Below are positions 1 to 58,500 of a DNA stretch of 64,000 bases, in pieces. The notes beneath the pieces were generated by a model. It saw nothing but the letters and a program-made list of their open reading frames with translations. It was not told the origin of the DNA and ran no database searches. Numbering within the stretch: the stretch's first letter is position 1; every line of letters starts with the position of its first letter. This DNA is from a virus, in IMG/VR virus record IMGVR_UViG_3300032105_000042, positions 15,693 through 79,692 of that record. One strand, written 5' to 3'. A program made the translations under genes and the position numbers.

Positions 1-713
1 TCTATATGTCCACACTTGTACTCATCTCTCCATGAGTTACAGCAAAGTGCGACACGACCATCCCAACGTATTACCATCTCTCTGAACGGGCGAGCGCAAC
101 GTCTCTGCAACGGCTCACTCGGCGGCTTCAATCCAGCACCACAATGGGCATTGACCCGTTTGGTACCCAAAGCAATCTCAGCCATCGCTGCCTTCTCAAA
201 GTCCTCCATCAGGATTATCCTCTGGACGTTCGCCTTGACTTTGTGGTAAGGCGATGGCCCACCAGGATAGTCCGTGACTGGAACGCCCTCATAAAGTCGG
301 ATCTGTGCTTCAGCCTTCTTGGAAGCTTCGTAGCAATCCATAGCAAAGATGTTCAACCCATTAACAAACAGTGCATCCAAATTAGCTGAAACACCAGGCT
401 TCCTCAGAAGAGGTATGCCATTCGTCGTAACCATGAGGCAGGCTTTAGGAAGATATTTTCTAAGTATGCCAATTATCTCAGCCGCATCTGGGTTCATCAA
501 TGGTTCACCACGAAGACTGAACTCAAACTTGCTGTTCCATCCACTCTCTGCAACAAGCTTGCCAATCTTTTCAGCAAGACCTGTTGTAAGGTATTCGTAA
601 AGCCCACCAGGCTTTTCCCTGATCCCTTGTATGCCACACATTTGACACCTGAGATTACATCCTTCAGTGAACTCTATCTTGATAGTATTTGGTGGATCTT
701 GTCGGTACTTCAT
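1..713 (-). CDS. Radical SAM enzyme with C-terminal SPASM/twitch-type Cys cluster (3' end runs off the window; absent from the ORF track)
   Basis: Manual translation from ATG 713, which overlaps the FkbM stop as ATGA: MKYRQDPPNTIKIEFTEGCNLRCQMCGIQ... Contains CxxxCxxC, FSLRGEPLMNP, VTTNG and C-terminal RCARPFREMVIRWDGRVALCCN. Confidence 0.9.
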   Translation of the reverse strand, partial: MKYRQDPPNTIKIEFTEGCNLRCQMCGIQGIREKPGGLYEYLTTGLAEKIGKLVAESGWNSKFEFSLRGEPLMNPDAAEIIGILRKYLPKACLMVTTNGIPLLRKPGVSANLDALFVNGLNIFAMDCYEASKKAEAQIRLYEGVPVTDYPGGPSPYHKVKANVQRIILMEDFEKAAMAEIALGTKRVNAHCGAGLKPPSEPLQRRCARPFREMVIRWDGRVALCCNSWRDEYKCGHI

Positions 714-1459
714 GATCTCCGCCTGACGAAAACAAAGTCTTGATGCCACATAGCTGATTTATACGGCAGGGATTTATGCCATCTACCACCTCTCTTGAAG
801 TAAGTATCAAATTCAGAATGGAGGATCTCTAGCAATCCTTCCGTAGCTGCCTTTGACTTCAAGGGCGAACTTTTCATACGCTCCTCTTTATTCAGAAGAA
901 ATCTACCACTATAATGTATCTCACCAAATAGGAACTTTACATACTTTGGCAATGGTGTCCGAAAAAATGACCATTCAGCACCCTGACAGTCCAATTTGAT
1001 TACGTTGGGCCTATAAGTCCTCAATACATCTGAGAAATAAAATGCCTTAACGCACCCAAGAATTACTGCCCTACCATCCCTACGACGTACAACACTACAC
1101 TGTGTCATATGCTTTGCCACTTTACTGATAGTCAAAGGAACCTTTTCCTCTCTCCAACCTATGAGAGCCCCTTCGAGACAGATCGCTTCTGGAGCATTCT
1201 TCTTAAGGATACGGAAATTACCCACCTCTGGCTCAATAGCTATGACTATCCTAGCACCAGCATCCAAAGCAAGTCTGGAGAAAAATCCCCGATGTGCCCC
1301 AACATCAAGAACAACACTACCCTTCAGACTGAGACCGAAATCCTCCAACATCCGGAAATATCCACGAACCTCCGCAAGTATCTCAATATCATATTCATCC
1401 CCAATCCAAACACCCTCGTGCTTTCTCATCATAGACCTAGCCCTCCATATAGATGCCAC
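710..1459 (-). CDS. FkbM-family SAM-dependent methyltransferase
   Basis: VLDVGAHRGFFS motif I, IAIEPEVGNF motif II, VIKLDCQGAEW motif typical of FkbM. Confidence 0.85.
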   Translation of the reverse strand: MASIWRARSMMRKHEGVWIGDEYDIEILAEVRGYFRMLEDFGLSLKGSVVLDVGAHRGFFSRLALDAGARIVIAIEPEVGNFRILKKNAPEAICLEGALIGWREEKVPLTISKVAKHMTQCSVVRRRDGRAVILGCVKAFYFSDVLRTYRPNVIKLDCQGAEWSFFRTPLPKYVKFLFGEIHYSGRFLLNKEERMKSSPLKSKAATEGLLEILHSEFDTYFKRGGRWHKSLPYKSAMWHQDFVFVRRRS

Positions 1460-1471
1460 AGATACGAGGGC

Positions 1472-2347
1472 TCATAACAACACTTTCACATCAGGAGTAT
1501 ACCGTTCCAACCTACCTTCACCAAGACGAACACGCTCGTATTTATCCCACTCGCATAAACTGTGTTCACAATCTCTCATCTCTAGAGACGGAACGTTTGT
1601 TGTTCTAAGATACCTTGGTGAAACCTCCAACAGACAACGCATCTCAGTTAATGCTTTAGTCTTAGAGAGCGAGGGTCTGTCGCGCCTGAGCCTACCTTTT
1701 ATTGGTCGGCCGAACACACGATGTAGTCCCCTAACCGCCCCAGGGCCAACGTTGGCCCACGTCATAATATCGGGAGCATCAGACAAGTATCTTGTGTGGC
1801 GAAGATCCGTCACGACTTCATAGGAAAGGAATGGCCCAAAGCCCACACGCCCATTGAACATTTGGAACGCTTCCTCCAAAGTCTTAGCAAGATGAAGTGG
1901 CGGTGGATCCTTGTGGAGAGGATCCAGAATCTTGAACACCGTCTGCTCAGACTTCTCACCACCCAACGTACCAGTCAGCATATAGGCACTCGTATAGACC
2001 TTCAAGCCTCGGGCACGTCGCTGCTTCATAATATTTAGTACACGTCTTGGCTCCCATCGTTCAGGAAAACCTATCTCCGCTAATGTCTCTGGCCAATTAA
2101 TCTGACGAGCCATAGTCATAGCAAACCAAAGATTCTTATGCTCCGAATAAGGCCCCCTCCAGTTCTCTCTGATCCATATTGTGACCTTGTCTAATTCCCT
2201 AAAAATGTTACAAAAACGGTATCGTTGGAGTATCGGGTCTTCCGTCCAAGGCGGAGGTTCACCTGCCTGACGGCGAAGATAGATCCTATGACGTTCACTT
2301 ACAAACGCAAAGAACATCTGCAATCCAGGAATTTTTTCCCTTGTCAT
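1472..2347 (-). CDS. Amino acid:DNA transferase / alpha-glutamyl-putrescinyl thymine pyrophosphorylase clade 1 (5hmdU hypermodification)
   Basis: ERHRIYLRRQAGEPPPWTEDPILQRYRFCNIFRELDKVTIWI N-terminal signature, GFGPFLSYEVVTDL, GPGAVRGL, RDCEHSLCEWDKY. Confidence 0.88.
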   Translation of the reverse strand: MTREKIPGLQMFFAFVSERHRIYLRRQAGEPPPWTEDPILQRYRFCNIFRELDKVTIWIRENWRGPYSEHKNLWFAMTMARQINWPETLAEIGFPERWEPRRVLNIMKQRRARGLKVYTSAYMLTGTLGGEKSEQTVFKILDPLHKDPPPLHLAKTLEEAFQMFNGRVGFGPFLSYEVVTDLRHTRYLSDAPDIMTWANVGPGAVRGLHRVFGRPIKGRLRRDRPSLSKTKALTEMRCLLEVSPRYLRTTNVPSLEMRDCEHSLCEWDKYERVRLGEGRLERYTPDVKVLL

Positions 2348-2802
2348 TTACAACACTTCCCGTGTTTATAATTTGGATTGTTGCGACCACGCCTGGTTTC
2401 TGACATTTTGTCCTTAGCAGCTTTTGTATGTTGACGCCCTGTGAAACCAATAGACCGGCACCCGAACATTGGATTTCGTTCCCCAGAGATATCCGGCCAA
2501 CGCCCTTTTTTGATGGAATCTTTTATGTTATCACTTTGGGTCCCAACGAATAAATGTGATGGCCGAACACACCGTCGGTTATCACATTTATGAAGGACAA
2601 GGAGCCCCACTGGAATGTTTCCAAAATGAAGCTCGTACGAATACCTATGTGCATACATTCGACCACGACTGCCTCCAACACTAAAATTTCCATAGCCCTT
2701 GTAGCAAACACCTGTCCATTCCCAGCACGTGTTGCGACCAGGCTCTTTATTGACTTTGGGCCAGAAACGAATTTCTGGGGGCGTTGGTGGACGACCAATC
2801 AT
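2344..2802 (-). CDS. Free-standing HNH homing endonuclease with NUMOD3-like C-terminus
   Basis: CWEWTG..AHRYSYELHFG..VLHKCDNRRCVRPSHLFVGTQSDN; C-terminal GRQHTKAAKDKMSETRRG. Start reassigned to ATG 2802, 1 nt after the upstream stub's stop. Confidence 0.9.
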   Translation of the reverse strand: MIGRPPTPPEIRFWPKVNKEPGRNTCWEWTGVCYKGYGNFSVGGSRGRMYAHRYSYELHFGNIPVGLLVLHKCDNRRCVRPSHLFVGTQSDNIKDSIKKGRWPDISGERNPMFGCRSIGFTGRQHTKAAKDKMSETRRGRNNPNYKHGKCCK

Positions 2803-2803
2803 C

Positions 2804-2950
2804 TCAATACAATATCCCCGAAGATAGCCAAGACTCACCAGCAGAACGGCGCAGATAGATGGAGTGTCGCTCGACGACGAACTCAAAGAAACGTCGCAGA
2901 GATTTTCTGGGGGGAGAAGCAGTAATATCTGCATTCCTTTTATTCATCAT
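2804..2950 (-). pseudogene. 48-aa stranded N-terminal stub of a second aGPT-Pplase1 allele
   Basis: MMNKRNADITASPPRKSLRRFFEFVVERHSIYLRRSAGESWLSSGILY*; FFEFVVERHSIYLRRSAGE matches FFAFVSERHRIYLRRQAGE of 1472..2347 at 15/19 residues. Confidence 0.85.
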
Positions 2951-2998
2951 CGAGCGCCTAGTTCACCGACACGACCTAATGTCAATAGAGCATGATAG

Positions 2999-3871
2999 TC
3001 ACGAGACCTTGATATTCCCCCTCGCCAGGTCGGTCTTCATGTTCCCCATTGTACCCCCCTTCTTGAGGAACTGACCGACCGTCATGCCGGTCTTGTAGAG
3101 GGCGAACCGTCTGTGGACTTCGGTACCCGGCCGACGTGGGTTTGACTTGGCGATGACGGTGATCTTCGCGTCGCGAGAAACTGCACCTTGCTTGCCAGCC
3201 GACTTCGTGGTTGCCGACTTGGTGCCCTTCTTGTCCTTGATCTTCTCGATCTTCTTGTCCTTGATCTTCTTGTCCTTGGTCTTCTTGCCCTTGCGCTTGG
3301 TCTTGTCCTTTTTCACAGTCTTATCCTTTCGCCGTTTCGATTTCCGTTTTGGAGCAGGAGGCTCATCCTCCTCCTCCTCTTCCTCGCCGTCCTCTTCTTC
3401 TTCTTCTTCTTCCTCTTCTTCACCCTCCTCCTCGCCGTCCTCTTCTTCTTCTTCCTCTTCTTCGTCCTCGTCCTCGCCCTCATCCTCGCCGTCCTCTTCC
3501 TCTTCCTCTTCCTCACCGTCCTCTTCCTCTTCCTCTCCTTCCTCTTCTTCTTCTTCTTCTTCTTCTTCTTCCTCTTCCTCTTCCTCTTCCTCGCCGTCCT
3601 GCTCTTCCTCGCCGTCCTCTTCTTCTTCCTCTTCCTCTTCCTCGGGCACGTCAACATCGGGGAACGATAGTGGCACGCCCCCGGCCTTGACATTATCTAC
3701 GGCTTCCTGGCACCAGCCTTGAGCCTCCGCTGAGAGCTGGAAAAACTTCTCGTCGGCGATAGCATCCATGGCACGAACGAGGCGCGTCCGGAAAGTTCCA
3801 TCGTCTTCCTTACGCTTCCGCTCAAGACCGGTAGCTTCCATGAGTTCTAATTCGATCGACATACTCCTCAC
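2999..3871 (-). CDS. Protein with a ~100-residue Glu/Asp tract, a Lys-rich segment and a small C-terminal domain (possible DNA mimic / nucleoprotein chaperone)
   Basis: Long EEEEEDGEEEE tract followed by KKDK repeats and a folded-looking NPRRPGTEVHRRFALYKTGMTVGQF end. Confidence 0.7.
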   Translation of the reverse strand: MRSMSIELELMEATGLERKRKEDDGTFRTRLVRAMDAIADEKFFQLSAEAQGWCQEAVDNVKAGGVPLSFPDVDVPEEEEEEEEEDGEEEQDGEEEEEEEEEEEEEEEEEEGEEEEEDGEEEEEEEDGEDEGEDEDEEEEEEEEDGEEEGEEEEEEEEEEDGEEEEEEDEPPAPKRKSKRRKDKTVKKDKTKRKGKKTKDKKIKDKKIEKIKDKKGTKSATTKSAGKQGAVSRDAKITVIAKSNPRRPGTEVHRRFALYKTGMTVGQFLKKGGTMGNMKTDLARGNIKVS

Positions 3872-4512
3872 TCCTCGAGTTGATATTCTGACAGGCAGGC
3901 AGCCACCTCTGACAACACGTCACGGTCTTGATCGAAACCAAATAGTCGTGCCAGCGTGAGGTTAATCGGCTCCACTGACGAGTGACCCTTCAAGCGACGA
4001 CGCGTGAGAGCAGACATGGGTTCGACCCCCAGGGCTTCTCTGAACAAAGCAACACACACACCCCGAAGTTCGTCAGGTACACACTTGATGACATCCAAGC
4101 ACACCTCCAGTTCGCTCACACAGTCATATACAGCCACGCCATTCGTTCCCGCAATATCAATGTCCCCACCCTCCTCATTTGTGAGTGAGAAACACCTGTT
4201 CTCGTAACCAACATTGAAAGGATTGGGAAAGCAGGCTGAAGCAGAACTGCTCAACAAAAACCTCAATGCCACCTTGTAGATACACAGAAACTCATCCTCG
4301 TCAGAAACATGTGCGTGATAGACACAAACCCTCCAGTAAATGTAGAAAGCAGTCTGCTGCAAATCATCATCATCACACACAGCAGCAACCTTCCAGCGGT
4401 TTCTTCGGAGATACGAGAGACCCCAGTCCTTGATCTTACCCTCGAACGCCGGGCTGCCATTCAACCTGTTACGCGAGAACACCTGGCTAACACTTACTCC
4501 ACTCTTCGTCAT
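3868..4512 (-). CDS. Hypothetical protein, weak resemblance to a sigma factor region 2
   Basis: ORF packed between neighbours with 4-nt overlap; DDDDLQQTAFYIYWRV resembles the sigma region 2 DLxQ motif. Confidence 0.4.
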   Translation of the reverse strand: MTKSGVSVSQVFSRNRLNGSPAFEGKIKDWGLSYLRRNRWKVAAVCDDDDLQQTAFYIYWRVCVYHAHVSDEDEFLCIYKVALRFLLSSSASACFPNPFNVGYENRCFSLTNEEGGDIDIAGTNGVAVYDCVSELEVCLDVIKCVPDELRGVCVALFREALGVEPMSALTRRRLKGHSSVEPINLTLARLFGFDQDRDVLSEVAACLSEYQLEE

Positions 4513-4542
4513 AACACTTCTCCCCTCCGTGTAACTTCCCAG

Positions 4543-5553
4543 CTAAACTTCACCCTCTACGCAGGACAGTGCAAAACGCCGTACCTGACGCGGAGACATC
4601 GCGCCCGGATCCTCCACACGATCGGGTAGTGAACCAACCTTAAGCTGCAGAAAACTCAACTCACCCCAGACTTGCATGACATTACTCAACCCATCGTCAT
4701 CACCAAGAAACACTATCTGGGAGCAGCACCCACGCAGTTCACTGAGGAGTGCTATCTGTTCCTCCGAAATGCCCGCACCAAAGAGGCAGGTAGCACGGAC
4801 ATCGAGATCACTCCCATAGACATCCACCTTCAAGGCATCCAGGGGACCCTCCACAACGCAGAGAGTATGGAACTTCTCTTCTACAAGTGCATCATAGTTC
4901 CACAAGACATTCCTGATACTCCGGAGAGCTAGTGGACTGTCCTCAGTCTCAGCGTTAGGTGAGAGTGTCAGATAACGCAGGCGAGCGTTCCTGCTGATAG
5001 CACGACCCGTCCATGTCACGAGCCGCCCCTCGAACCACACTGGAAAGATGATCCGGCCGTGCCAAAAGCCTGTCTTACAGTAGCCGAGACTATACTCGGC
5101 ACAAACCGCGTCCAGATCTTCCCGCCGAAATCGACGTCTCACCAGATAATCCTGATAGTAGCACCCGAGCCCCTTGCTAGTCAGTGGACGGTAGTCTCTA
5201 GGAAGCTCCAAACCGTTCCCGACATGTTCCTCGGACTCTGGCTTGGGGGAACGCAGCCTGTCCACCACTTCGGCAAGCCCACCCAGGTCGCGCGCTCCCA
5301 CAACTATGTCGTCGGCAACAGTGTAACCACACCCAAGCAACTTCATTATGAGCCGGTGTGGTCGTCGGCCACCATGGCCACCATGCCGCAGGCAGTTCCA
5401 GTACGCTGTTGACAACTGTATTCCCAAATGTTCGCTGGGATCCTCATCACCACAGAACGGGCACTTGACAACGATGCCTCCCTTAGCGCAGTTTGGTCCC
5501 TCCGTCCGGTAGGGAATATGATTATCCTCGAGAAATGTAATAACGTCAAACAT
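4543..5553 (-). CDS. DNA primase (Zn finger + TOPRIM)
   Basis: CPFCGD zinc finger, GRIIFPV, VVEGPLDAL and FLGDDD TOPRIM motifs. Confidence 0.9.
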   Translation of the reverse strand: MFDVITFLEDNHIPYRTEGPNCAKGGIVVKCPFCGDEDPSEHLGIQLSTAYWNCLRHGGHGGRRPHRLIMKLLGCGYTVADDIVVGARDLGGLAEVVDRLRSPKPESEEHVGNGLELPRDYRPLTSKGLGCYYQDYLVRRRFRREDLDAVCAEYSLGYCKTGFWHGRIIFPVWFEGRLVTWTGRAISRNARLRYLTLSPNAETEDSPLALRSIRNVLWNYDALVEEKFHTLCVVEGPLDALKVDVYGSDLDVRATCLFGAGISEEQIALLSELRGCCSQIVFLGDDDGLSNVMQVWGELSFLQLKVGSLPDRVEDPGAMSPRQVRRFALSCVEGEV

Positions 5554-7124
5554 CAGAGTCTCACCCGCCCACGAAGCACCCTGTTCATCAAGTTCTGACC
5601 CCTGGCAAGAGCAGCAAGGATACGCTCGTCCACGGAGTGACCAGTAATCTCGCTCTTAACAACGGGGTCTATCACAAACACTCTCTCGGACTTCTGGCCG
5701 CTGCGCCTGGCGCGGCGCTCCGCCTGGGTACGGATGATGGGGCGGACGGAGCTCTCGAAGAAGAACAGGTAGCACGCAACCTGCAAATTCAAGCTCATGG
5801 ACCCGGAGTTATTGTTGATCACGAAGATACGGTAACTCGGGTCCTCCAGGAAGCGACGGAGAGCCCGCCGTGGGTGCTTCTGTCCGGACCACAGGCGCTC
5901 GTGCTTGATCTTCCTGGCCTTCAGCTCCCTGCTTATCCGGTTCCCCGTCCAGATGTACTCGTGGTAGACCAGCATCTTCGCGTCCGCTGGCATCTCGTCT
6001 ATCGCCTCGATGAGAGCGTCCAGCTTCGGGTTGGCCGGAAACTCTATCTGAGCACGCGCCCCGGTCTCGTCATCCTTCAGCCCGAGGAAGCCGGAGGAGA
6101 TCTGCCGCATGCGGATGAACGAGTGGTTAATCTCCTGCCAGTTGCCCTTGACCTTGCGAAGATGCTCCAGAGTCCGCTCGTAGTACTGCTCCATCTCAGC
6201 TGTAAACAAGAGCACCCGCCTGATCGGGACGCGCTCGGGCAGATCCTGGCACTCTCCCTCAACGTAGGTAATGGACCGGTGCCCGATCAGACGACTGAGA
6301 GCGCCTAGCTTCTTCCTGTCGAACTTGTAGTCCCAGCCACCGCTCCAGTAGTTTCTCTTCTTCTTGAACAGAGCCTCGCGGAACAACCCCAGTGTTGGGC
6401 CCAGAGTTTGCCCACGATCCAGGATGTAGAACTGAGCCCAGAGTGGAGTCGGCTCCTTGCCAAAGGGTGTGCCCGTGAGCCCAAAGCACATGTCGACGAA
6501 GCGGGAGAATTGATTGCAGATACGGAAGATGAGAGACCGCTTGTTCATTACTACCGTCGACTCGTCCAGGACGAGCCCGTTGAACTTGCGGAGCAGGGAC
6601 TTAATCTTCTTCTTATCCAAGTATCGCTTTCGGCGTCTCGACCTCTTCCTCGGTGGCAGGGTTGAGCAGAGCGCTCGAAGCCCCGGATAGTGTACAATGA
6701 ATAGGTCAGCCTCCCGGTCCAATAGCTGCCGCCGCTCCTTGTGGCTCACATCCAGAGCTACAAAATCCAGCATCGGCGCATACTTCTCTATCTCGATTAC
6801 CCAGTTCTCGATGCTGGCACGGTTGAGTACACAGATCAGGAAGCAGGTTCGCTCACCTCTACACTTCCGGTAGGCAATGAGATCCAGCACCACCCGCGTC
6901 TTACCGATCCCCATGTCCATGAAGAACATGAACCGCTGGAAGTAGACGCCGAGAAGGAAGCCCACGAGCTGGTTGTCCCAGGGTTCATCGGGACCGTAGA
7001 ACTCGGGAGGAGGATCAAGATCACCTATGGCCTGGAGCAGCTCCCGTCGAGATAGCTTCTTCATCCAGGCGAAACTATCCGCTGGCTGCTCCAGAAACTT
7101 CTCTATGATTTTCCGCGAGATCAC
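5553..7124 (-). CDS. SNF2-family (SF2) helicase/ATPase
   Basis: FMDMGIGKT motif I, LVLDES motif II, GLTGTP motif III, QAERRARRSGQ motif VI. Start reassigned to GTG 7124 after the RBS-like GAGGTTAGG. Confidence 0.88.
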   Translation of the reverse strand: MISRKIIEKFLEQPADSFAWMKKLSRRELLQAIGDLDPPPEFYGPDEPWDNQLVGFLLGVYFQRFMFFMDMGIGKTRVVLDLIAYRKCRGERTCFLICVLNRASIENWVIEIEKYAPMLDFVALDVSHKERRQLLDREADLFIVHYPGLRALCSTLPPRKRSRRRKRYLDKKKIKSLLRKFNGLVLDESTVVMNKRSLIFRICNQFSRFVDMCFGLTGTPFGKEPTPLWAQFYILDRGQTLGPTLGLFREALFKKKRNYWSGGWDYKFDRKKLGALSRLIGHRSITYVEGECQDLPERVPIRRVLLFTAEMEQYYERTLEHLRKVKGNWQEINHSFIRMRQISSGFLGLKDDETGARAQIEFPANPKLDALIEAIDEMPADAKMLVYHEYIWTGNRISRELKARKIKHERLWSGQKHPRRALRRFLEDPSYRIFVINNNSGSMSLNLQVACYLFFFESSVRPIIRTQAERRARRSGQKSERVFVIDPVVKSEITGHSVDERILAALARGQNLMNRVLRGRVRL

Positions 7125-7254
7125 GACACCTAACCTCAATACTCCCCGTACTACAGCGACTAAGTACCCCTTACATTTAGGGTTTACTTGTATCAATAAA
7201 AACCTTATACTGAAAAACAAGCTGCGTAAAGAAAAATATTTAGTGGAGCGGGTC

Positions 7255-7563
7255 ATGACAAAAACACCCACCAAAATCCCACAGGATCTACTGAGCAACT
7301 ACGATCTCATGTTCATGTTTGACAGATCGCTGCAGCGGATCTACGTCTGGCGGCGTAAGAAGGGATTGCCATTCCACAAGATCCCTGGAGGATCCGTCAA
7401 GACCATGCCTGTGCGATACAGCCTGTCAGAGATTATAAGCTGGGCAGAAAAGAACGATATCTTCATCCATCACAAACCAACAATCACAGCAAGTGGAGAT
7501 GTACGCTGGCCGAGATCAAGACGGAAGGAGTTCAAGGAGTTCCACCAGAAGACTAAGCTCTAA
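7255..7563 (+). CDS. Small HTH DNA-binding protein (excisionase/AlpA-like)
   Basis: LLSNYDLMFMFDRSLQRIYVWRRKKGLPF...VRYSLSEIISW pattern; ATG 7255. Confidence 0.6.
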   Translation: MTKTPTKIPQDLLSNYDLMFMFDRSLQRIYVWRRKKGLPFHKIPGGSVKTMPVRYSLSEIISWAEKNDIFIHHKPTITASGDVRWPRSRRKEFKEFHQKTKL

Positions 7564-7662
7564 GAACATCAGCTGTATGACTGGTTGAGAGAGCTGAGGT
7601 AAGGATTGATATCAATATTGATATATGTAGTATTTGGAATTGGAAAATTCATGTACTATAAA

Positions 7663-7762
7663 CTTCCTACTCTCCTACTCTCCTACTCTCCCCCCTCCCC
7701 CTCCTCTTACGAGGGGGGGAGAGGAGGGGGAGAGAGTAGGAGTAAGAGTAGGAGAGGGAGTT
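7663..7762. repeat. Imperfect inverted repeat with a polypyrimidine left arm and polypurine right arm (CCTACTCT iterations)
   Basis: cctactctcctactctcctactctccccctccccctcctc-ttac-gagggggggagaggagggggagagagtaggagtaagagtagga, preceded by an AT-rich stretch. Confidence 0.75.
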
Positions 7763-7785
7763 GTAAAGGAGAAAGGGAGGGAGTT

Positions 7786-8274
7786 GTGTTGGAGAGAGTG
7801 ATATCGGGGGGTCAGACTGGCGCTGATCAGGGAGGTCTGGAAGGAGCCAAGGAGGCCGGTATTGAGACTGGTGGGATGGCACCCAGAGGCTACAGAACGA
7901 GCTCCGGACCCCAGCCAGACCTGAGAAGGAGGTTCGGCCTGGAGGAGTCCCAGTCTGCCTACTACTCTCCGAGGACTAGGACCAACGTGCGGAATAGCAC
8001 TGGGACGGTAATCTTTGGAGACCCACACTCACCAGGGAGCAGGTTGACATCCCGGCTGTGCAGGGAATACCAGAAGCCCTGTCTCAAGATACCCTACCCC
8101 AGCTCGACGAGCGACAGCCCCAGAGACGCGCTGGCTGTGTGGTGCCTGGTAAACTGCGTCGAGACCCTGAACGTAGCGGGGAACAGAGAGGAGAGGAACC
8201 CAGGGATCCAGGCGTTCGTGAGAGGAGTGATACTAGGTACAGTAGAGCGGCAGAGGGAGATATGCATCCTGTAG
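7786..8274 (+). CDS. SLOG-superfamily protein (MoCo-carrier-like / YpsA-related)
   Basis: VISGGQTGADQGGL, GGMAPRGY, RTRTNVRNSTGT, LNVAGNRE; GTG 7786. Confidence 0.85.
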   Translation: MLERVISGGQTGADQGGLEGAKEAGIETGGMAPRGYRTSSGPQPDLRRRFGLEESQSAYYSPRTRTNVRNSTGTVIFGDPHSPGSRLTSRLCREYQKPCLKIPYPSSTSDSPRDALAVWCLVNCVETLNVAGNREERNPGIQAFVRGVILGTVERQREICIL

Positions 8275-46880: not shown

Positions 46881-47188
46881 TCCGTAGGCATCACCATCCT
46901 GAGTTTGCTCTTGTCCAGGCCCTTGCCCGACGCCAGCACGCAGCTGATACCGCCAGGCTTGGTCAGAAGCAGGGTCCAGGTGCCCTGACTCGAGGAGGCT
47001 AGGATCTCCAGGAGGCCATGCTCCTCCATCATCTTGACTTCGATCAGCTCCTCTTCGTACTCGGACGCCAGGCGATTGAGCATATCCACACGGTCAACGC
47101 ACAGCATCTGCGCCACTGCGGGCGTGGCTGCACTCGCTAGGAGCGACAGCACTATCGCCAGCGCTCCTAGCAGTCTAGTCATGCTCAC
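46868..47188 (-). CDS. Secreted protein of a type common in Alphaproteobacteria
   Basis: Signal peptide, C.DR..M...L...YEE, GTWTLLLT.PGG.SCV..SG. Confidence 0.65.
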   Translation of the reverse strand: MSMTRLLGALAIVLSLLASAATPAVAQMLCVDRVDMLNRLASEYEEELIEVKMMEEHGLLEILASSSQGTWTLLLTKPGGISCVLASGKGLDKSKLRMVMPTEWVT

Positions 47189-47511
47189 ACTCCAAACATC
47201 TTGAATAGGCAGCCGTAGCGAGTTATCCAGGACCGACCTTCCGGGTCCTCGCTGGGATAGATGATGTTTACCACCACTTCCACCGACATATCGTTAATCT
47301 CAATCACGATCTTGTTCCCCACCTCCAACGGTGCCGCGACCTCGTGTGGAATTACCACCGCGTCCACAGGACCGCAGCAGCTCTGTCCAAATCTAGTCTC
47401 GTACTTCACGATGAAGGCGTACTCGCCGTGGGCTCTCGCCACCTCAAGTCGAAGGATATACACGGGAATGGCTACCATTACAACTATGGCCATCCTAAAG
47501 AGGAATATCAC
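47185..47511 (-). CDS. Signal-peptide-bearing hypothetical protein
   Basis: Hydrophobic N-terminus, AHGEY, SCCG..D. Confidence 0.55.
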   Translation of the reverse strand: MIFLFRMAIVVMVAIPVYILRLEVARAHGEYAFIVKYETRFGQSCCGPVDAVVIPHEVAAPLEVGNKIVIEINDMSVEVVVNIIYPSEDPEGRSWITRYGCLFKMFGV

Positions 47512-47524
47512 CCTTGTCTCCTTC

Positions 47525-47923
47525 CTAGTAGCAAGCGTCGCACATGATTACCGTAAGATCATAGCAGAGAAACATGGTGCCACACCTTAGACACCTCCGA
47601 TGCCAAATCTTTTGTTTTTCATTTGTGCTCGCGATCCTCTTTGACAGACCTATCATTTTGTTGCGGATCGCACCGTCGCCACGCCTGAGTATTGGCACCA
47701 TTTGAGATACGGTTAGACCCTCTGCCTTCAGTTCGGACAGCCGTTTCAATTCCTCCACTGTCCACCGGATCCGACGACGACGCGGTAGTTTTAGCACAGC
47801 AATATGGTTACTGACAGCGACCTCGGTGCGACCCATGATTACCGAGATTTCCGGTACAGTCTTGTGCTCAACATTCCACATCTGGGTCAAGGAGTCATTG
47901 TCTATGTCAAGCCAGTCTGCCAT
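47525..47923 (-). CDS. GcrA-like / Myb-like HTH regulator with C-terminal Zn ribbon
   Basis: Two repeats of W...e...L.E....G....I...L.R....A (e.g. WTVEELKRLSELKAEGLTVSQMVPILRRGDGAIRNK); C-terminal CxxC..CxxC. Confidence 0.6.
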   Translation of the reverse strand: MADWLDIDNDSLTQMWNVEHKTVPEISVIMGRTEVAVSNHIAVLKLPRRRRIRWTVEELKRLSELKAEGLTVSQMVPILRRGDGAIRNKMIGLSKRIASTNEKQKIWHRRCLRCGTMFLCYDLTVIMCDACY

Positions 47924-48204
47924 GTGGGATTACTTCGCACTACCCCAGAGTGAAACTACCACCTGATAATTCTACCACTACAATACAGCGTAGCAGGCTC
48001 TCAGGACTACAGCTCCCCCGGTGGTTCGAGGTGGTCCTCCGAGCTGGACTCCTTACTTCGCACGCAGCAGTTCAGCATATCGATGGCCTCGTATATCCGA
48101 TCCCAGTCAACGTCGTAGTCCTCGTCCTCCAGCCAGAAGCCATAGATCAGCAGCGGGTGGTAGTATCCGCTGTCAACACTGGGAGTACCCGTCGCTGCCA
48201 TCCC

Positions 48205-55541: not shown

Positions 55542-58500
55542 TCACCCACAGTCCGAGTAGCCGCAGCTGCCGCAGGTCGCGCAGCCCTCCCGGTGATACA
55601 GCGTCGGGTTCTGGCACCGGGGGCAGATCTCGCCTGCCGGCGGTGCCTCCTCTTCCTCAACCTTCATCTCCGCGTCCTCCGGGTCCTGGGGGGACACGGC
55701 CTCCCCCTCATCCAGCAGACCGATCTTGAGGAAGTGCTGTCGGACCACGGAACCGATCATAGCGACCAGACTCGGCACGTACTTCCCCCCTATCCAGTGG
55801 CCACCCATGCTACCAGAGTGCACCTGCTCCAACTCCTCCAGGAGGAAGGTAACGTCACCTCCCCGCCGGAAGATGGCCGAGATCGTCCTGGTCAGCGCCG
55901 TGATCCACTCGTGGTGCTTGACCGACTTGGAGTTGATGAAGATCTCGAAGGGACGACGCTCTCCCCTCTCGTCCACGTAGTCGTTCATGGTGACATAGAA
56001 CGCCTGGTCGAGAGAAGGCCAGCGGACCTTGTAGGTGCAGCCGTCCAGCTCCGCCGGTCTGGAGGCAACCGGCTGGGCCTGGGGCTGGTCCTCCCCCTTC
56101 TCCTCGGGCACCGACATGACCGAGCCGCGCTCCGGGCTGGGCCTGTAGGTAGTGCATCCCTTGAGCCCCATGTCGTAGGCCATCCGGTACACGTCCTGGA
56201 AGTCCTCCAGGGTCATGTCCTCCGGGCAGTTGATGGTCTTGGAGATGGACGCGTCGATGTACTTCTGGCAGACCTCCTGCATGACTAGGTGGTCCTGGAC
56301 CGACAGCTCCAGCGCTGTCACCATGTAGTCCGGCAGCGAGTCCCACGCCAGCAGCTCGCCAGACTCACCAAACTTCCTCTGGTACAGGCGATATCCGTAG
56401 TCCTCGACGTGCTCGAACTCCTCGAGCGTCCCGTCGGCCTGCACTATCTTGCGCTGGTACCACCACGCGAAGGTTGGCTCCAGTCCTGAGGAGACGTTGC
56501 CGTAGTAGATGGAGGTCGTGCCCGTCGGCGCGATAGTCAGCAGCACACCGTTGCGGATCCCGTGGTCGTGGATCCCCCCTCGTATGAGCGTAGGCAGCGG
56601 CAGGACGAACTTACCCTCCAGATACTTGTCGCGATTGAACAGTGGAAATGGACCTCGCTCCTTGGCAAGGTCGATCGACGTGAGGTACGCAGTGTCCCTG
56701 ATAACGCGCATTATTTCCCCAGTTAGCAGGACGGCCTCCTCGCTACCGTATCGAGAGCACATCTGCTGAAGAAGGTTGCCGAGCCCGGTGATGCCGAGAC
56801 CAACTCGCCGCTTGCTCAGTGCCTCCTTCCTCTGCTCCTCCGTCGGGTACTGCGTCACGTCCAGGACGTTGTCGAGGAAGCGAACGCCTATCTGAGTTGT
56901 GTCCCTGACTAGATCCCACTTTACCTCGGCCTGCTCGGTGAAAGGATGCTCTACCATCACCGCCAGGTTGACGGCCCCGAGGTTGCAGTCGCCATTGGCC
57001 GGGAGAGGCTGCTCGCCGCAGTTGGAGACTAGGATACCCTCGTTCTCACCACACACCACGAAGAACCTTCCCGTCTCGCTCACAGTACCACAGTAGACGT
57101 CCTCCGTAGCATCCAACTCTAGAACCGAGACTACCTTGTGATTACCACCAAGGCGATCCATGACCATAGCTTTGCTACATCCAACCTCGTTAGCAATTGC
57201 CTGATAACTTAGACCTTCAGCACGGAGAGACACTAGTTTCTCAGTCTCTATATCATGTCTATAGTTGCCATTCTTCCCTCCAGAGAAGTCCTCATAGTGG
57301 AAGTGGTTCCTCTCCGGAAACCTACGCATAGGGTTCTGATCACCCATCATCTTCATAGCGTTGTGTTCCGACGCAGGAAGTATCTCGATGTTGTCTGGTC
57401 TATTATTCTTCCTGTCCTCATCCTTGTGATGCCCATGCTCCCTTGGATAGTCAGGCCGACGACCATGCTGATACTCACAGGCAACATAGTGCTCCATGAC
57501 AGTCTCGCAGGAGCCACGGAGAGCAATGTAGCCTTTCTGATTAGCCAACCCCCTGTAAACACTGCATATCCGCTGGCCAGCCACGAGACTTCCCGCCTGT
57601 ATTCTACGCCCATCAACCAGGAAGAATATGTGCTCGGGTGTGCACCGCACCCGAGTGACACTCTTGTAACGCTTCCCATTACCTCTAAACGTGACCTCTA
57701 CAAGATTAGCACGTCTGCGCGTCAAACGAGGGTTCTTCATCTCCCGATAAGCAAGATGTCCATCTTCTAACTGTGTCAGAACCAGGACCGACTTACGAGA
57801 ACGAGCAAGCTCATCAAACCTCCGTGGGCCATATGCTGTCCAAACTTTGCTATCTCCCGTCAGGCAAGGATTGGTGCAGTGTATTGTCTCTGTATACCAC
57901 AGGTTGTTCCACTGGTTAACGCGATCTATGAAGATCACGCCTGGCTCAGCATAATCATAGGTAGACTTAGTAATCAAATCCCAAAGATAGCGGGCCTCAT
58001 ATCGTTTATAAACATAGAAAGGAATATCATGGAAGTGATCACCGGGATCCACGACCTCCACGTGTTTCCCATCCGCGCGTGGCACCGAGAAGCCAAGATC
58101 CCACCCGAGATCATTCTCTACACAATACATAAAGGAATTGGTTACGAGGACAGAGACATTGAAGTTAGTGAGCCTCCCCTTCTCGTGTTTGGCCGTCACG
58201 AACTCCTCCAGGTCCGGGTGATCGCAGGAGAGTGTAGCCATCATGGCACCACGCCGCGACCCCGACGACATGATAGTGGCACACATGGAATTCCACATAT
58301 CCATGAACGGCAGCGGACCGGAGGAGGCAGAGCCGGTCCTACGTACCACGGCACCCCTTGGTCTCAGCGTTGAGAAGTCCATTCCGATACCCCCACCCAT
58401 CTGCTGCGTGTAGGCAGCCACGCTCAGCGCGTCCATTATCCCGGCGCTATGTCCGCCGTCCTCCTCCGTCGCCATGGAATCCTCGATCTCCGGGGCAACG

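What the first reader, a model, noticed from the sequence alone, without database searches (positions are those of the whole stretch)
2230..2950. HNH insertion left a stranded N-terminus of the transferase; the incoming cassette carries its own recoded N-terminus
Seen: upstream of the HNH is a 48-codon ORF containing FFEFVVERHSIYLRRSAGE, which then diverges and stops 1 nt before the HNH ATG. Downstream, the intact transferase starts in the HNH stop (ATGA) with FFAFVSERHRIYLRRQAGE (15/19 identical). The two copies differ at many synonymous sites (TTC/TTT, GTC/GTA, GAG/GAA, CAC/CAT, CTG/CTT). The stub uses the GC3-rich backbone style, while 1-2800 is visibly AT-richer. Inference: an HNH-driven event replaced the resident DNA-modification allele with a foreign module, recombining inside the conserved 5' end. 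This would be homing-endonuclease-mediated swapping of a whole base-modification chemistry, with recoding possibly protecting the new copy from cleavage.
Basis: partly seen in the sequence, partly recalled or inferred. Interest (0 to 1): 0.75.

Follow-up and report, generated by a model that had tools for sequence, protein, structure and literature searches.

The report
Endonuclease cassette orphaned a gene start
In an uncultivated marine-sediment phage, a mobile HNH endonuclease gene sits with a foreign set of DNA-modification genes where the phage's own version used to be, and the first 41 codons of the old gene are left stranded upstream; sister phages carry a different endonuclease 15 codons away in the same gene, so this gene start is a hot spot where DNA-modification modules are exchanged.

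Summary
On the minus strand a 48-codon ORF (2804-2950) stops 1 nt before an HNH_3/NUMOD3 endonuclease gene (2344-2802). That gene overlaps by ATGA a complete PF18723 gene (1472-2347) with its own copy of the same N-terminal motif.

Sibling contigs settle what the stub is. It is the orphaned 5' end (codons 1-41) of the backbone's resident PF18723 gene. An HNH-less sibling has the same intergenic region running into an intact gene. Another sibling, 89% identical in backbone DNA, has the same stub cut at codon 26 by a different HNH (HNH_3/AP2). That cassette carries a 17-codon replacement N-terminus.

In the window, HNH through TAGT is a low-GC island (GC3 0.39-0.50 against 0.56-0.76). Its proteins resemble those of low-GC phages more than the backbones do.

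Best reading: one-sided, homing-endonuclease-associated replacement. The left junction is illegitimate and homology resumes at the ThyA start.

Not shown: cleavage by this HNH, protective recoding, and the ancestral chemistry. The synonymous differences fit plain saturation. The GC3-rich stub claim does not hold over the whole stub.

It is a new variant of a known kind, a mirror image of the fungal mitochondrial mobile ORFs (mORFs) that carry foreign C-termini.

The parts
2999..3871 (-). Backbone gene for an acidic-then-basic protein; left flank of the variable modification locus.
   Evidence: Its DNA lies within one continuous 88.9% alignment with sibling B (L149) that runs through the intergenic region into the stub. 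The acidic gene precedes the modification module in many distant relatives. GC3 0.65.
2951..2998 (-). Intergenic region upstream of the resident PF18723 gene.
   Evidence: Alignable with siblings B and B', and with the HNH-less sibling D, where it precedes an intact gene.
2828..2950 (-). Stub codons 1-41: the orphaned 5' end of the resident (backbone-type) PF18723 gene, called R.
   Evidence: Codons 3-27 are 91% identical in DNA to sibling B's stub. Codons 27-41 are 87% and 91% identical to codons 17-31 of the full genes of B and B'. The HMM match ends at residue 41. Both of the only two SNPs between the window and L147 (5,446 nt) fall here, at 2891 and 2884.
2803..2827 (-). Left junction and cassette-borne leader of the HNH gene. 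It supplies the stub's last 7 codons (LSSGILY), its TGA stop and the single base before the HNH ATG.
   Evidence: Identity to the resident-type sequence stops after ...GAGTCTTGGC at 2827. GC 0.40.
2344..2802 (-). Free-standing HNH homing-endonuclease-like gene, HNH1 (152 aa, P0001).
   Evidence: Pfam HNH_3 at 1.3e-13 and NUMOD3 at 1.8e-8; PHROG HNH endonuclease families. Absent from siblings C, D and E. Homologues at 44-53% identity sit directly upstream of PF18723 genes in L065 and L091. GC3 0.39.
1472..2347 (-). Complete incoming PF18723 gene (HMUDK_hel family, 291 aa, P0002), with its own N-terminus.
   Evidence: Pfam PF18723 at 3.6e-52, covering profile positions 4-277 of 281. Its start overlaps the HNH stop as ATGA. 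DNA identity to sibling B's allele is 74.7% against 88.9% for the backbone. GC3 0.46.
710..1459 (-). FkbM-like methyltransferase; part of the low-GC island.
   Evidence: Pfam Methyltransf_21. GC3 0.40. 64% aa identity to sibling B's copy against 87-94% for the backbone.
1..749 (-). Radical SAM/SPASM gene, 5' part; the gene runs off the window start. Part of the low-GC island, which continues outside the window through a TAGT glycosyltransferase to the ThyA start at genome position 14627.
   Evidence: Pfam Radical_SAM and SPASM; TAGT and Thymidylat_synt on the next two genes. GC3 is 0.50 and 0.47 in rSAM and TAGT, then 0.76 in ThyA. Homology with siblings D and B' resumes at the ThyA ATG.

Best explanation
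The 48-codon ORF is the orphaned 5' end (codons 1-41) of the phage's resident PF18723 gene, which opens a thymidine-hypermodification module lying between the acidic-protein gene and the ThyA-like gene.

A foreign, lower-GC segment has replaced everything from codon 42 of the resident gene to the ThyA start. That segment holds an HNH_3/NUMOD3 homing-endonuclease gene, a complete PF18723 gene, an FkbM methyltransferase, a radical SAM/SPASM enzyme and a TAGT glycosyltransferase.

Most likely mechanism (inferred):
1. During co-infection with a donor phage, a break occurred in or near the conserved 5' end of the resident gene, probably made by the HNH.
2. The break was repaired one-sidedly. Homology was used on the downstream side, at ThyA.
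3. On the upstream side there was a non-homologous join to the leader of the HNH gene.
4. This left the resident N-terminus as a short leader ORF that ends 1 nt before the HNH start. HNH and the new gene are then chained by stop/start overlaps, which suggests coupled translation from the resident gene's signals.

Shown: orphan status of the stub, junction position, foreignness of the island, a second independent endonuclease insertion in siblings. Inferred: the order of events and the enzyme responsible.
For: 1. Orthology of the stub.
- Sibling B (L149) aligns with window 6866..2869 in one block of 4,020 nt at 88.9% and breaks at stub codon 27.
- Stub codons 27-41 match codons 17-31 of B's and B''s full genes at 87% and 91%.
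- HNH-less sibling D has the same intergenic region and a stub-like start continuing into an intact 297-aa gene.

2. Not a local duplication. Stub against P0002 gives pS 0.83 and pN 0.25.

3. Foreign island.
- GC3 is 0.39-0.50 for the five island genes, against 0.56-0.76 for eight flanking genes.
- Against low-GC phage E, island proteins are 61-66% identical apart from the methyltransferase (29%), and backbone proteins 23-45%. Against low-GC phage C the figures are 56-65% and 46-52%.
- Against sibling B the reverse holds: backbone 87-94%, island 64-76%.

4. Endonuclease link.
- Sibling lineages B and B' carry a different HNH (HNH_3/AP2) inserted at codon 26/27 of the same resident gene. It brings a 17-codon replacement N-terminus that is 43% identical in DNA to the stub.
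- In 137 loci collected without regard to HNH, 2 of 3 HNH1-type ORFs lie directly upstream of a PF18723 gene and the third directly upstream of ThyA.

5. Right border at the ThyA ATG in A, D and B'.

6. One-sided homing with an illegitimate junction is established in T4 (PMC2988022, citing Parker et al. 1999).

7. The same structure occurs in four independent assemblies.
Against: - No cleavage data exist, and no close relative of HNH1 was found (best about 50-60% identity). Its target and cassette limits are therefore unknown.
- No donor with a near-identical island was found. The best radical SAM relatives outside the window's own cluster are 62-71% identical.
- Siblings B and B' differ downstream of a breakpoint inside the PF18723 gene's last third with no endonuclease at that junction. 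Module exchange therefore also happens by plain homologous recombination, and the HNH could be a later passenger.
- The module that the island replaced is not recoverable from these data.
Confidence: 0.75

Rival explanations
1. Two separate events. The low-GC module, including the body of P0002, was acquired earlier by ordinary homologous recombination. Later a small HNH1 cassette with a short replacement N-terminus inserted at codon 41, as the HNH2 cassette did in sibling B. On this view the endonuclease did not bring the module.
For: Sibling B shows exactly such a small cassette: HNH2 plus 17 codons, with GAGC on both sides. B and B' differ in their downstream modules with a breakpoint in the gene's last third and no endonuclease there.
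Against: There is no switch of composition or similarity inside P0002. Its body is 74.7% identical to the resident-type body of B, while the stub is 87-91%. An earlier crossover would have had to fall between codons 41 and about 50, and the HNH would then have had to land exactly on it.
Confidence: 0.17
2. In-place partial tandem duplication of the gene's 5' end, with an HNH gene inserted between the copies and later divergence.
For: There are two copies of the same motif about 600 nt apart, flanking an HNH gene.
Against: Synonymous sites are saturated while amino acids are conserved (pS 0.83, pN 0.25), which fits long separate evolution as functional genes. The stub is 87-91% identical to siblings' resident sequence, whereas P0002's 5' end is not. 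The downstream copy sits in a compositionally foreign island.
Confidence: 0.03
3. The HNH gene lies in a self-splicing intron, and the stub is exon 1 of the downstream gene.
For: HNH genes often live in phage group I introns. The stub ends in the conserved region of the protein.
Against: No Rfam intron family matches 1-4500 even at E up to 1. The downstream gene has its own complete, family-typical N-terminus and a start overlapping the HNH stop. Any intron would have to contain a second copy of exon 1. Sibling B has a differently placed, unrelated HNH with the same layout.
Confidence: 0.02
4. The stub is a functional small gene in its own right, kept for a role unrelated to the old gene.
For: In A, B and B' the stub stays open up to the HNH start: 1 nt before it, overlapping it, and 8 nt before it. 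This is compatible with a retained leader ORF that drives coupled translation.
Against: It was truncated at different codons in siblings, 41 against 26. Both SNPs between the window and L147 fall in it, and one is non-synonymous. In B' the last 7 codons of the 26-codon resident-derived part carry 4 amino-acid changes relative to B, and the junction-derived tails that follow differ almost completely.
Confidence: 0.03

Closest known systems
Free-standing homing endonucleases of T4-like phages (SegF, SegG, MobE): intronless homing, marker exclusion and co-conversion of flanking genes (reviewed in PMC2988022; MobE in PMC2790892)
   Same: An HNH-family endonuclease gene wedged between genes, sporadic among close relatives, next to a conserved gene, and associated with replacement of neighbouring DNA by the donor's allele.
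   Different: In those cases both flanks are homologous and no gene fragment is left behind. Here the upstream junction is non-homologous and strands 41 codons of the resident gene. No activity was tested here.
[quoted passage not shown]
   Same: Homology on one side only, a junction on the other side at a non-homologous site, and proposed as the way endonuclease elements enter new sites.
   Different: That was an engineered laboratory system with a group I intron. This appears to be a natural footprint, seen twice with two different endonucleases in sibling phages. Microhomology at the window's junction cannot be checked without the donor.
Mobile endonuclease ORFs (mORFs) of fungal mitochondria that carry a foreign gene C-terminus: Allomyces macrogynus atp6; Glomus atp6, atp9, cox2, nad3 (PMC3630166)
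   Same: An endonuclease ORF travels with a replacement end of the gene it interrupts. The native end remains as a stranded duplicate that is close to relatives' DNA (91%) but far from the inserted copy (63%), with amino acids conserved. The numbers here are very similar.
   Different: This is the mirror image: the N-terminus rather than the C-terminus. It is in a phage rather than an organelle. The endonucleases are HNH, whereas the Glomus atp6 mORF described in that paper is a LAGLIDADG ORF. In the window the replacement extends over a whole five-gene module.
Nuclease genes at boundaries of genetic exchange between ICP1 and other phages (PMC10448857)
   Same: Homing endonuclease genes, including HNH/AP2 types, mark the edges of recombined segments and cluster near important genes.
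   Different: That work describes the boundaries statistically. It does not report stranded gene starts with cassette-borne replacement N-termini, nor DNA-hypermodification modules as the cargo (text search of that paper).
Thymidine hypermodification gene clusters: 5-hmdU DNA kinase, aGPT-Pplase/amino acid:DNA transferase, radical SAM and others (PMC8989533, PMC5889632)
   Same: The locus lies next to a thymidylate-synthase-like gene and a UDG-fused family A polymerase. Sibling D has an ADDT (PF18724) plus 5-hmdU kinase (PF18748) pair. That paper notes combinatorial diversity of the clusters.
   Different: The window's module has no kinase and no clade 2 transferase. It pairs a PF18723 protein with TAGT, radical SAM/SPASM and FkbM methyltransferase, a combination whose product is unknown. 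Endonuclease-linked exchange of these clusters is not mentioned in that paper.

Membership tests
Free-standing HNH homing endonuclease gene | HNH catalytic domain together with a DNA-binding module | tested here: met
   Pfam HNH_3 at 1.3e-13 (profile positions 2-44 of 46) and NUMOD3 at 1.8e-8; PHROG HNH endonuclease families at 5e-31.
Free-standing HNH homing endonuclease gene | Not inside an intron or intein; its own ORF between genes | tested here: met
   It is a separate ORF with stop/start overlaps to its neighbours. No intron family is detected.
Free-standing HNH homing endonuclease gene | Sporadic presence among closely related genomes at a conserved site | tested here: met
   Present in A. 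Replaced by an unrelated HNH in B and B'. Absent from D, C and E at the same locus.
Free-standing HNH homing endonuclease gene | Cleaves or nicks the endonuclease-less allele near the insertion site, with its own allele immune | not testable with these tools
   This needs purified protein and DNA substrates. The sequence differences between the stub-type and incoming 5' ends (61% identity) allow immunity but do not show it.
Free-standing HNH homing endonuclease gene | Super-Mendelian inheritance with co-conversion of flanking markers in mixed infection | not testable with these tools
   The phage is uncultivated. The only indirect hint is an identical 5.4-kb region in four independent assemblies.
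PF18723 (HMUDK_hel; aGPT-Pplase-like helical protein) | Full-length match to the family profile | tested here: met
   P0002 scores 177.9 bits against a cut-off of 25, covering profile positions 4-277 of 281. There are 2,173 homologues at E <= 1e-20.
PF18723 (HMUDK_hel; aGPT-Pplase-like helical protein) | Genomic association with 5-hmdU synthesis and modification genes | tested here: met
   The PF18723 gene, TAGT and/or a radical SAM gene, the ThyA-like gene and usually an HD phosphohydrolase gene lie together in the same order in the 40 best-matching relatives listed. Sibling D pairs it with ADDT and the 5-hmdU kinase.
   P0002 has no hit to ADDT (PF18724) even at E up to 1. Published transferase activity is for clade 2 enzymes (PMC8989533).
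Group I intron with an internal endonuclease gene | Ribozyme core recognisable by covariance models, and exons that join to one ORF | tested here: not met
   Rfam finds nothing relevant in 1-4500. The downstream 'exon' already has a full N-terminus.
Endonuclease ORF carrying a replacement gene end (fungal mitochondrial mORF type) | Duplicate gene ends flanking the endonuclease: the native copy close to relatives, the inserted copy divergent in DNA but conserved in protein | tested here: met
   The native stub is 87-91% identical to siblings. The inserted N-termini are 43-61% identical in DNA to the stub with most residues kept. This matches the pattern reported in PMC3630166, but at the other end of the gene.

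The most novel reading that the evidence does not exclude
Homing endonucleases of at least two HNH lineages use the conserved 5' end of the PF18723 gene, and the 5' end of ThyA, as landing sites. They act as vehicles that move whole thymidine-hypermodification modules between otherwise unrelated phages. Each cassette carries a pre-diverged replacement N-terminus, from 17 codons to a whole gene. That keeps the interrupted gene working and makes the new allele immune to cutting. This would be a phage counterpart of the mitochondrial mORF strategy and an alternative to introns and inteins. It would make selfish endonucleases a driver of diversification of anti-restriction DNA chemistry.
Probability: 0.35. 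Interest if true: 0.75.

Novelty: new variant of a known kind. Interest (0 to 1): 0.55.

Why it matters
DNA hypermodification is a main phage counter-defence, and its gene clusters are known to be combinatorially diverse. How whole modules move between phages is not known.

This locus gives a dated, nucleotide-resolved footprint of such a replacement. A stranded resident gene start sits next to a homing endonuclease. Sibling phages carry an AADT/kinase module, two different TAGT/radical-SAM modules, or a different endonuclease with a 17-codon replacement N-terminus at almost the same site.

It also gives a concrete biochemical test: does either HNH cut the resident-type 5' end but not its own?

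It appears to be a natural example of one-sided illegitimate homing, which has been proposed as the way endonuclease genes reach new sites.

It extends the 'endonuclease plus replacement gene end' strategy, known from fungal mitochondria, to phages and to N-termini.

Tried and rejected
- The stub as a query for related viral contigs found nothing, because 8-residue exact words were too strict. The acidic protein as a query was swamped by its poly-E tract.
- DNA search of the phage record collection found only a 141-nt weak match to Bordetella phages.
- No close relative of HNH1 exists among 5.8 billion proteins; the best is about 50-60% over the core. Its cassette limits and donor could therefore not be defined. 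Four distant HNH loci in IMG/VR have other contexts.
- No solved structure matches HNH1 by sequence.
- The promoter and terminator scan of 1300-4000 was no better than shuffles.
- No RNA holder is listed among public runs, so splicing and expression could not be examined.
- Contigs laid from four marine runs were mostly short. One low-depth contig (X4, depth 2, 44 nt on the shorter side) joins 2834 to 2199 and skips the HNH. This fits an intact resident-type relative but is too weak to use as evidence.
- Text searches did not reveal a tested function for PF18723 proteins.
- I considered that the excess of synonymous differences reflects selection for recoding and rejected it. In the window 9 of 16 same-residue codons differ, as saturation predicts. 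In sibling B 7 of 8 differ, about p 0.06 by a rough binomial, which is not significant.
Full report
**Setting**

The window is bases 15693-79692 of a 79.8-kb uncultivated viral contig. Public runs that hold it are marine sediment metagenomes. All genes in 1-7300 are on the minus strand.

In transcription order they are:
- SNF2 helicase, 5553-7298
- a 336-aa protein, 4543-5553
- a 214-aa protein, 3868-4512
- an acidic-then-basic protein, 2999-3871
- the 48-codon stub, 2804-2950
- an HNH_3/NUMOD3 endonuclease, 2344-2802
- a full PF18723 (HMUDK_hel) gene, 1472-2347
- an FkbM-like methyltransferase, 710-1459
- a radical SAM/SPASM gene, from 749 running off the window start

Outside the window these are followed by a TAGT glycosyltransferase, a thymidylate-synthase-like gene (ThyA), an HD phosphohydrolase, two unknown genes and a UDG-fused family A polymerase.

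- The stub's TGA is 1 nt before the HNH ATG, and the HNH stop overlaps the next start as ATGA.
- Stub against full gene gives 19/33 identities, E 2e-9.
- A profile of the family's N-terminus scores the stub at E 5e-9. It is the only N-terminus-only hit among 61,651 six-frame ORFs from about 150 related loci, and the match ends at stub residue 41.
- The same structure, base for base, is in three other assemblies from different data sets.

**What the stub is**

Protein searches led to sibling contigs that share the backbone. I label the window's own phage lineage A and the siblings B, B', C, D and E.

- *Sibling B (L149-L152).* It aligns with window 6866..2869 in one 4,020-nt block at 88.9% and stops at stub codon 27. 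B has its own, shorter stub: the same first 26 codons, 91% identical in DNA. This is followed by a different endonuclease (190 aa, HNH_3 plus AP2) and then a full PF18723 gene, P0004.
- *The first 16-17 codons of P0004.* They are AT-rich and only 43% identical in DNA to the stub. From codon 17 on, P0004 is 87% identical to the window's stub codons 27-41, and sibling B' is 91%.
- *What this means for B.* An HNH cassette carrying a 17-codon replacement N-terminus was inserted cleanly into the resident gene at codon 26/27, with GAGC on both sides.
- *What this means for the window.* Resident-type sequence runs to ...GAGTCTTGGC at 2827. The last seven stub codons belong to the HNH leader.
- *Sibling D (L156/L157).* It has ThyA-to-polymerase DNA 80.6% identical to the window and no endonuclease. 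The same intergenic sequence leads into an intact 297-aa gene whose start resembles the stub.

**The incoming DNA is foreign**

- The five genes from HNH to TAGT have GC3 0.39-0.50. Eight flanking backbone genes have 0.56-0.76, with no overlap between the two sets.
- In sibling D the whole locus has backbone-like GC3.
- Phages C (L153) and E (L160) are low-GC throughout and carry HNH-less versions of a PF18723/radical SAM/TAGT module.
- Against E, the window's island proteins are 61-66% identical apart from the methyltransferase (29%), while backbone proteins are only 23-45%. Against C the figures are 56-65% and 46-52%.
- Against sibling B the pattern reverses: backbone 87-94%, island 64-76%.
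- Stub against P0002 is saturated at synonymous sites with residues conserved (pS 0.83, pN 0.25). The two copies therefore diverged as working genes in different genomes, not by local duplication.
- The right-hand border of the exchanged segment is the ThyA start codon in A, D and B' alike.

**A variable locus**

Four siblings on one backbone have four different contents between the acidic gene and ThyA:

| Sibling | Content |
|---|---|
| A (the window) | stub41 - HNH1 - PF18723 - MTase - rSAM - TAGT |
| B | stub26 - HNH2 - patched PF18723 - MTase - ... |
| B' | stub26 - HNH2 - patched PF18723 - TAGT - a different rSAM |
| D | PF18723 - unknown - ADDT - 5-hmdU kinase - unknown |

D's pair is the published kinase/amino-acid-transferase chemistry (PMC8989533). 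The window's set is a different, uncharacterised one. B and B' share the HNH2 region and diverge inside the last third of the PF18723 gene, where GC and similarity also switch.

**Link to endonucleases**

- Two unrelated HNH genes sit 15 codons apart in the same resident gene.
- HNH1-type genes also lie directly upstream of PF18723 genes in two distant contigs, L065 and L091, without stubs.
- A third lies directly upstream of ThyA in L099.
- Those three are all the HNH1-type ORFs found in 137 loci collected without regard to HNH.

This is circumstantial but consistent evidence that the borders of this module are endonuclease landing sites.

**Mechanism**

The layout has a non-homologous upstream junction and homology restored downstream. 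It matches the one-sided, illegitimate double-strand-break repair described for T4 homing (PMC2988022).

The idea of an endonuclease ORF travelling with a replacement gene end, leaving the native end stranded, is known from fungal mitochondria, where it concerns C-termini (PMC3630166). Endonuclease genes at exchange borders are documented in ICP1 phages (PMC10448857).

What is new here is the N-terminal, phage version, seen twice, with hypermodification modules as cargo.

**Limits**

- No cleavage, expression or splicing data are available.
- No donor was found, and HNH1 has no close relative.
- The synonymous differences are what saturation gives, so 'protective recoding' is untested.
- A two-step history, with the module arriving first and the HNH later, remains possible at about one in six.
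- Both SNPs separating the window from L147 lie in the stub, one of them non-synonymous. The rough chance of that is 7e-4. It hints at relaxed constraint but rests on two sites.

Noticed in passing
G000:C1:8240-8797 (minus strand; outside the window, upstream of its first base): A second homing-endonuclease-like gene in the same phage. It is 52% identical to sibling B's HNH_3/AP2 gene and lies in a low-GC patch just downstream of the UDG-fused polymerase gene.
   Followed up: partly
G000:C1:3820-4491 (minus strand; outside the window): A third HNH-type ORF (E 7.5e-22 to the HNH1 profile), again in a low-GC patch.
   Followed up: no
L099:9489-9992: In a distant relative, an HNH1-type gene sits 8 nt upstream of the ThyA-like gene. 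That is the other border of the exchangeable module.
   Followed up: partly
L149:3940-3990 and L158:370-425: At sibling B's left junction the 9-mer TTCTTTGAG (coding FFE) occurs twice, 15 nt apart: once in the stub and once in the HNH2 leader. It may be a relic of an older, shorter stub carried with the cassette, or junction microhomology. Unexplained.
   Followed up: no
L156:1550-4481: Sibling D carries a different module on the same backbone: an unknown 171-aa protein, ADDT (PF18724), 5-hmdU DNA kinase (PF18748) and an unknown 303-aa protein. All have backbone-like GC3.
   Followed up: partly
L160:6881-12292: A low-GC phage from a run that also holds the window's phage has a richer HNH-less module: PF18723, FkbM methyltransferase, a carrier-protein-like ORF (PP-binding), radical SAM, Glyco_transf_61 and TAGT.
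   Followed up: partly
window 2884 and 2891: The only two base differences between the window and contig L147 over 5,446 nt both fall inside the stub. One is synonymous and one changes E23 to K.
   Followed up: yes
window 2976 (loose end in run X3): One metagenome contig has the window-type stub but continues upstream into sibling-B-type intergenic sequence. This suggests recombinants between the two lineages in the environment.
   Followed up: no
window 7001-8000, 39001-40000, 47001-48000, 57001-58000: Further 1-kb bins of low GC (0.48-0.52 against about 0.58-0.63 around them). They contain no HNH-type ORF by the profiles used here. Their content was not examined.
   Followed up: no
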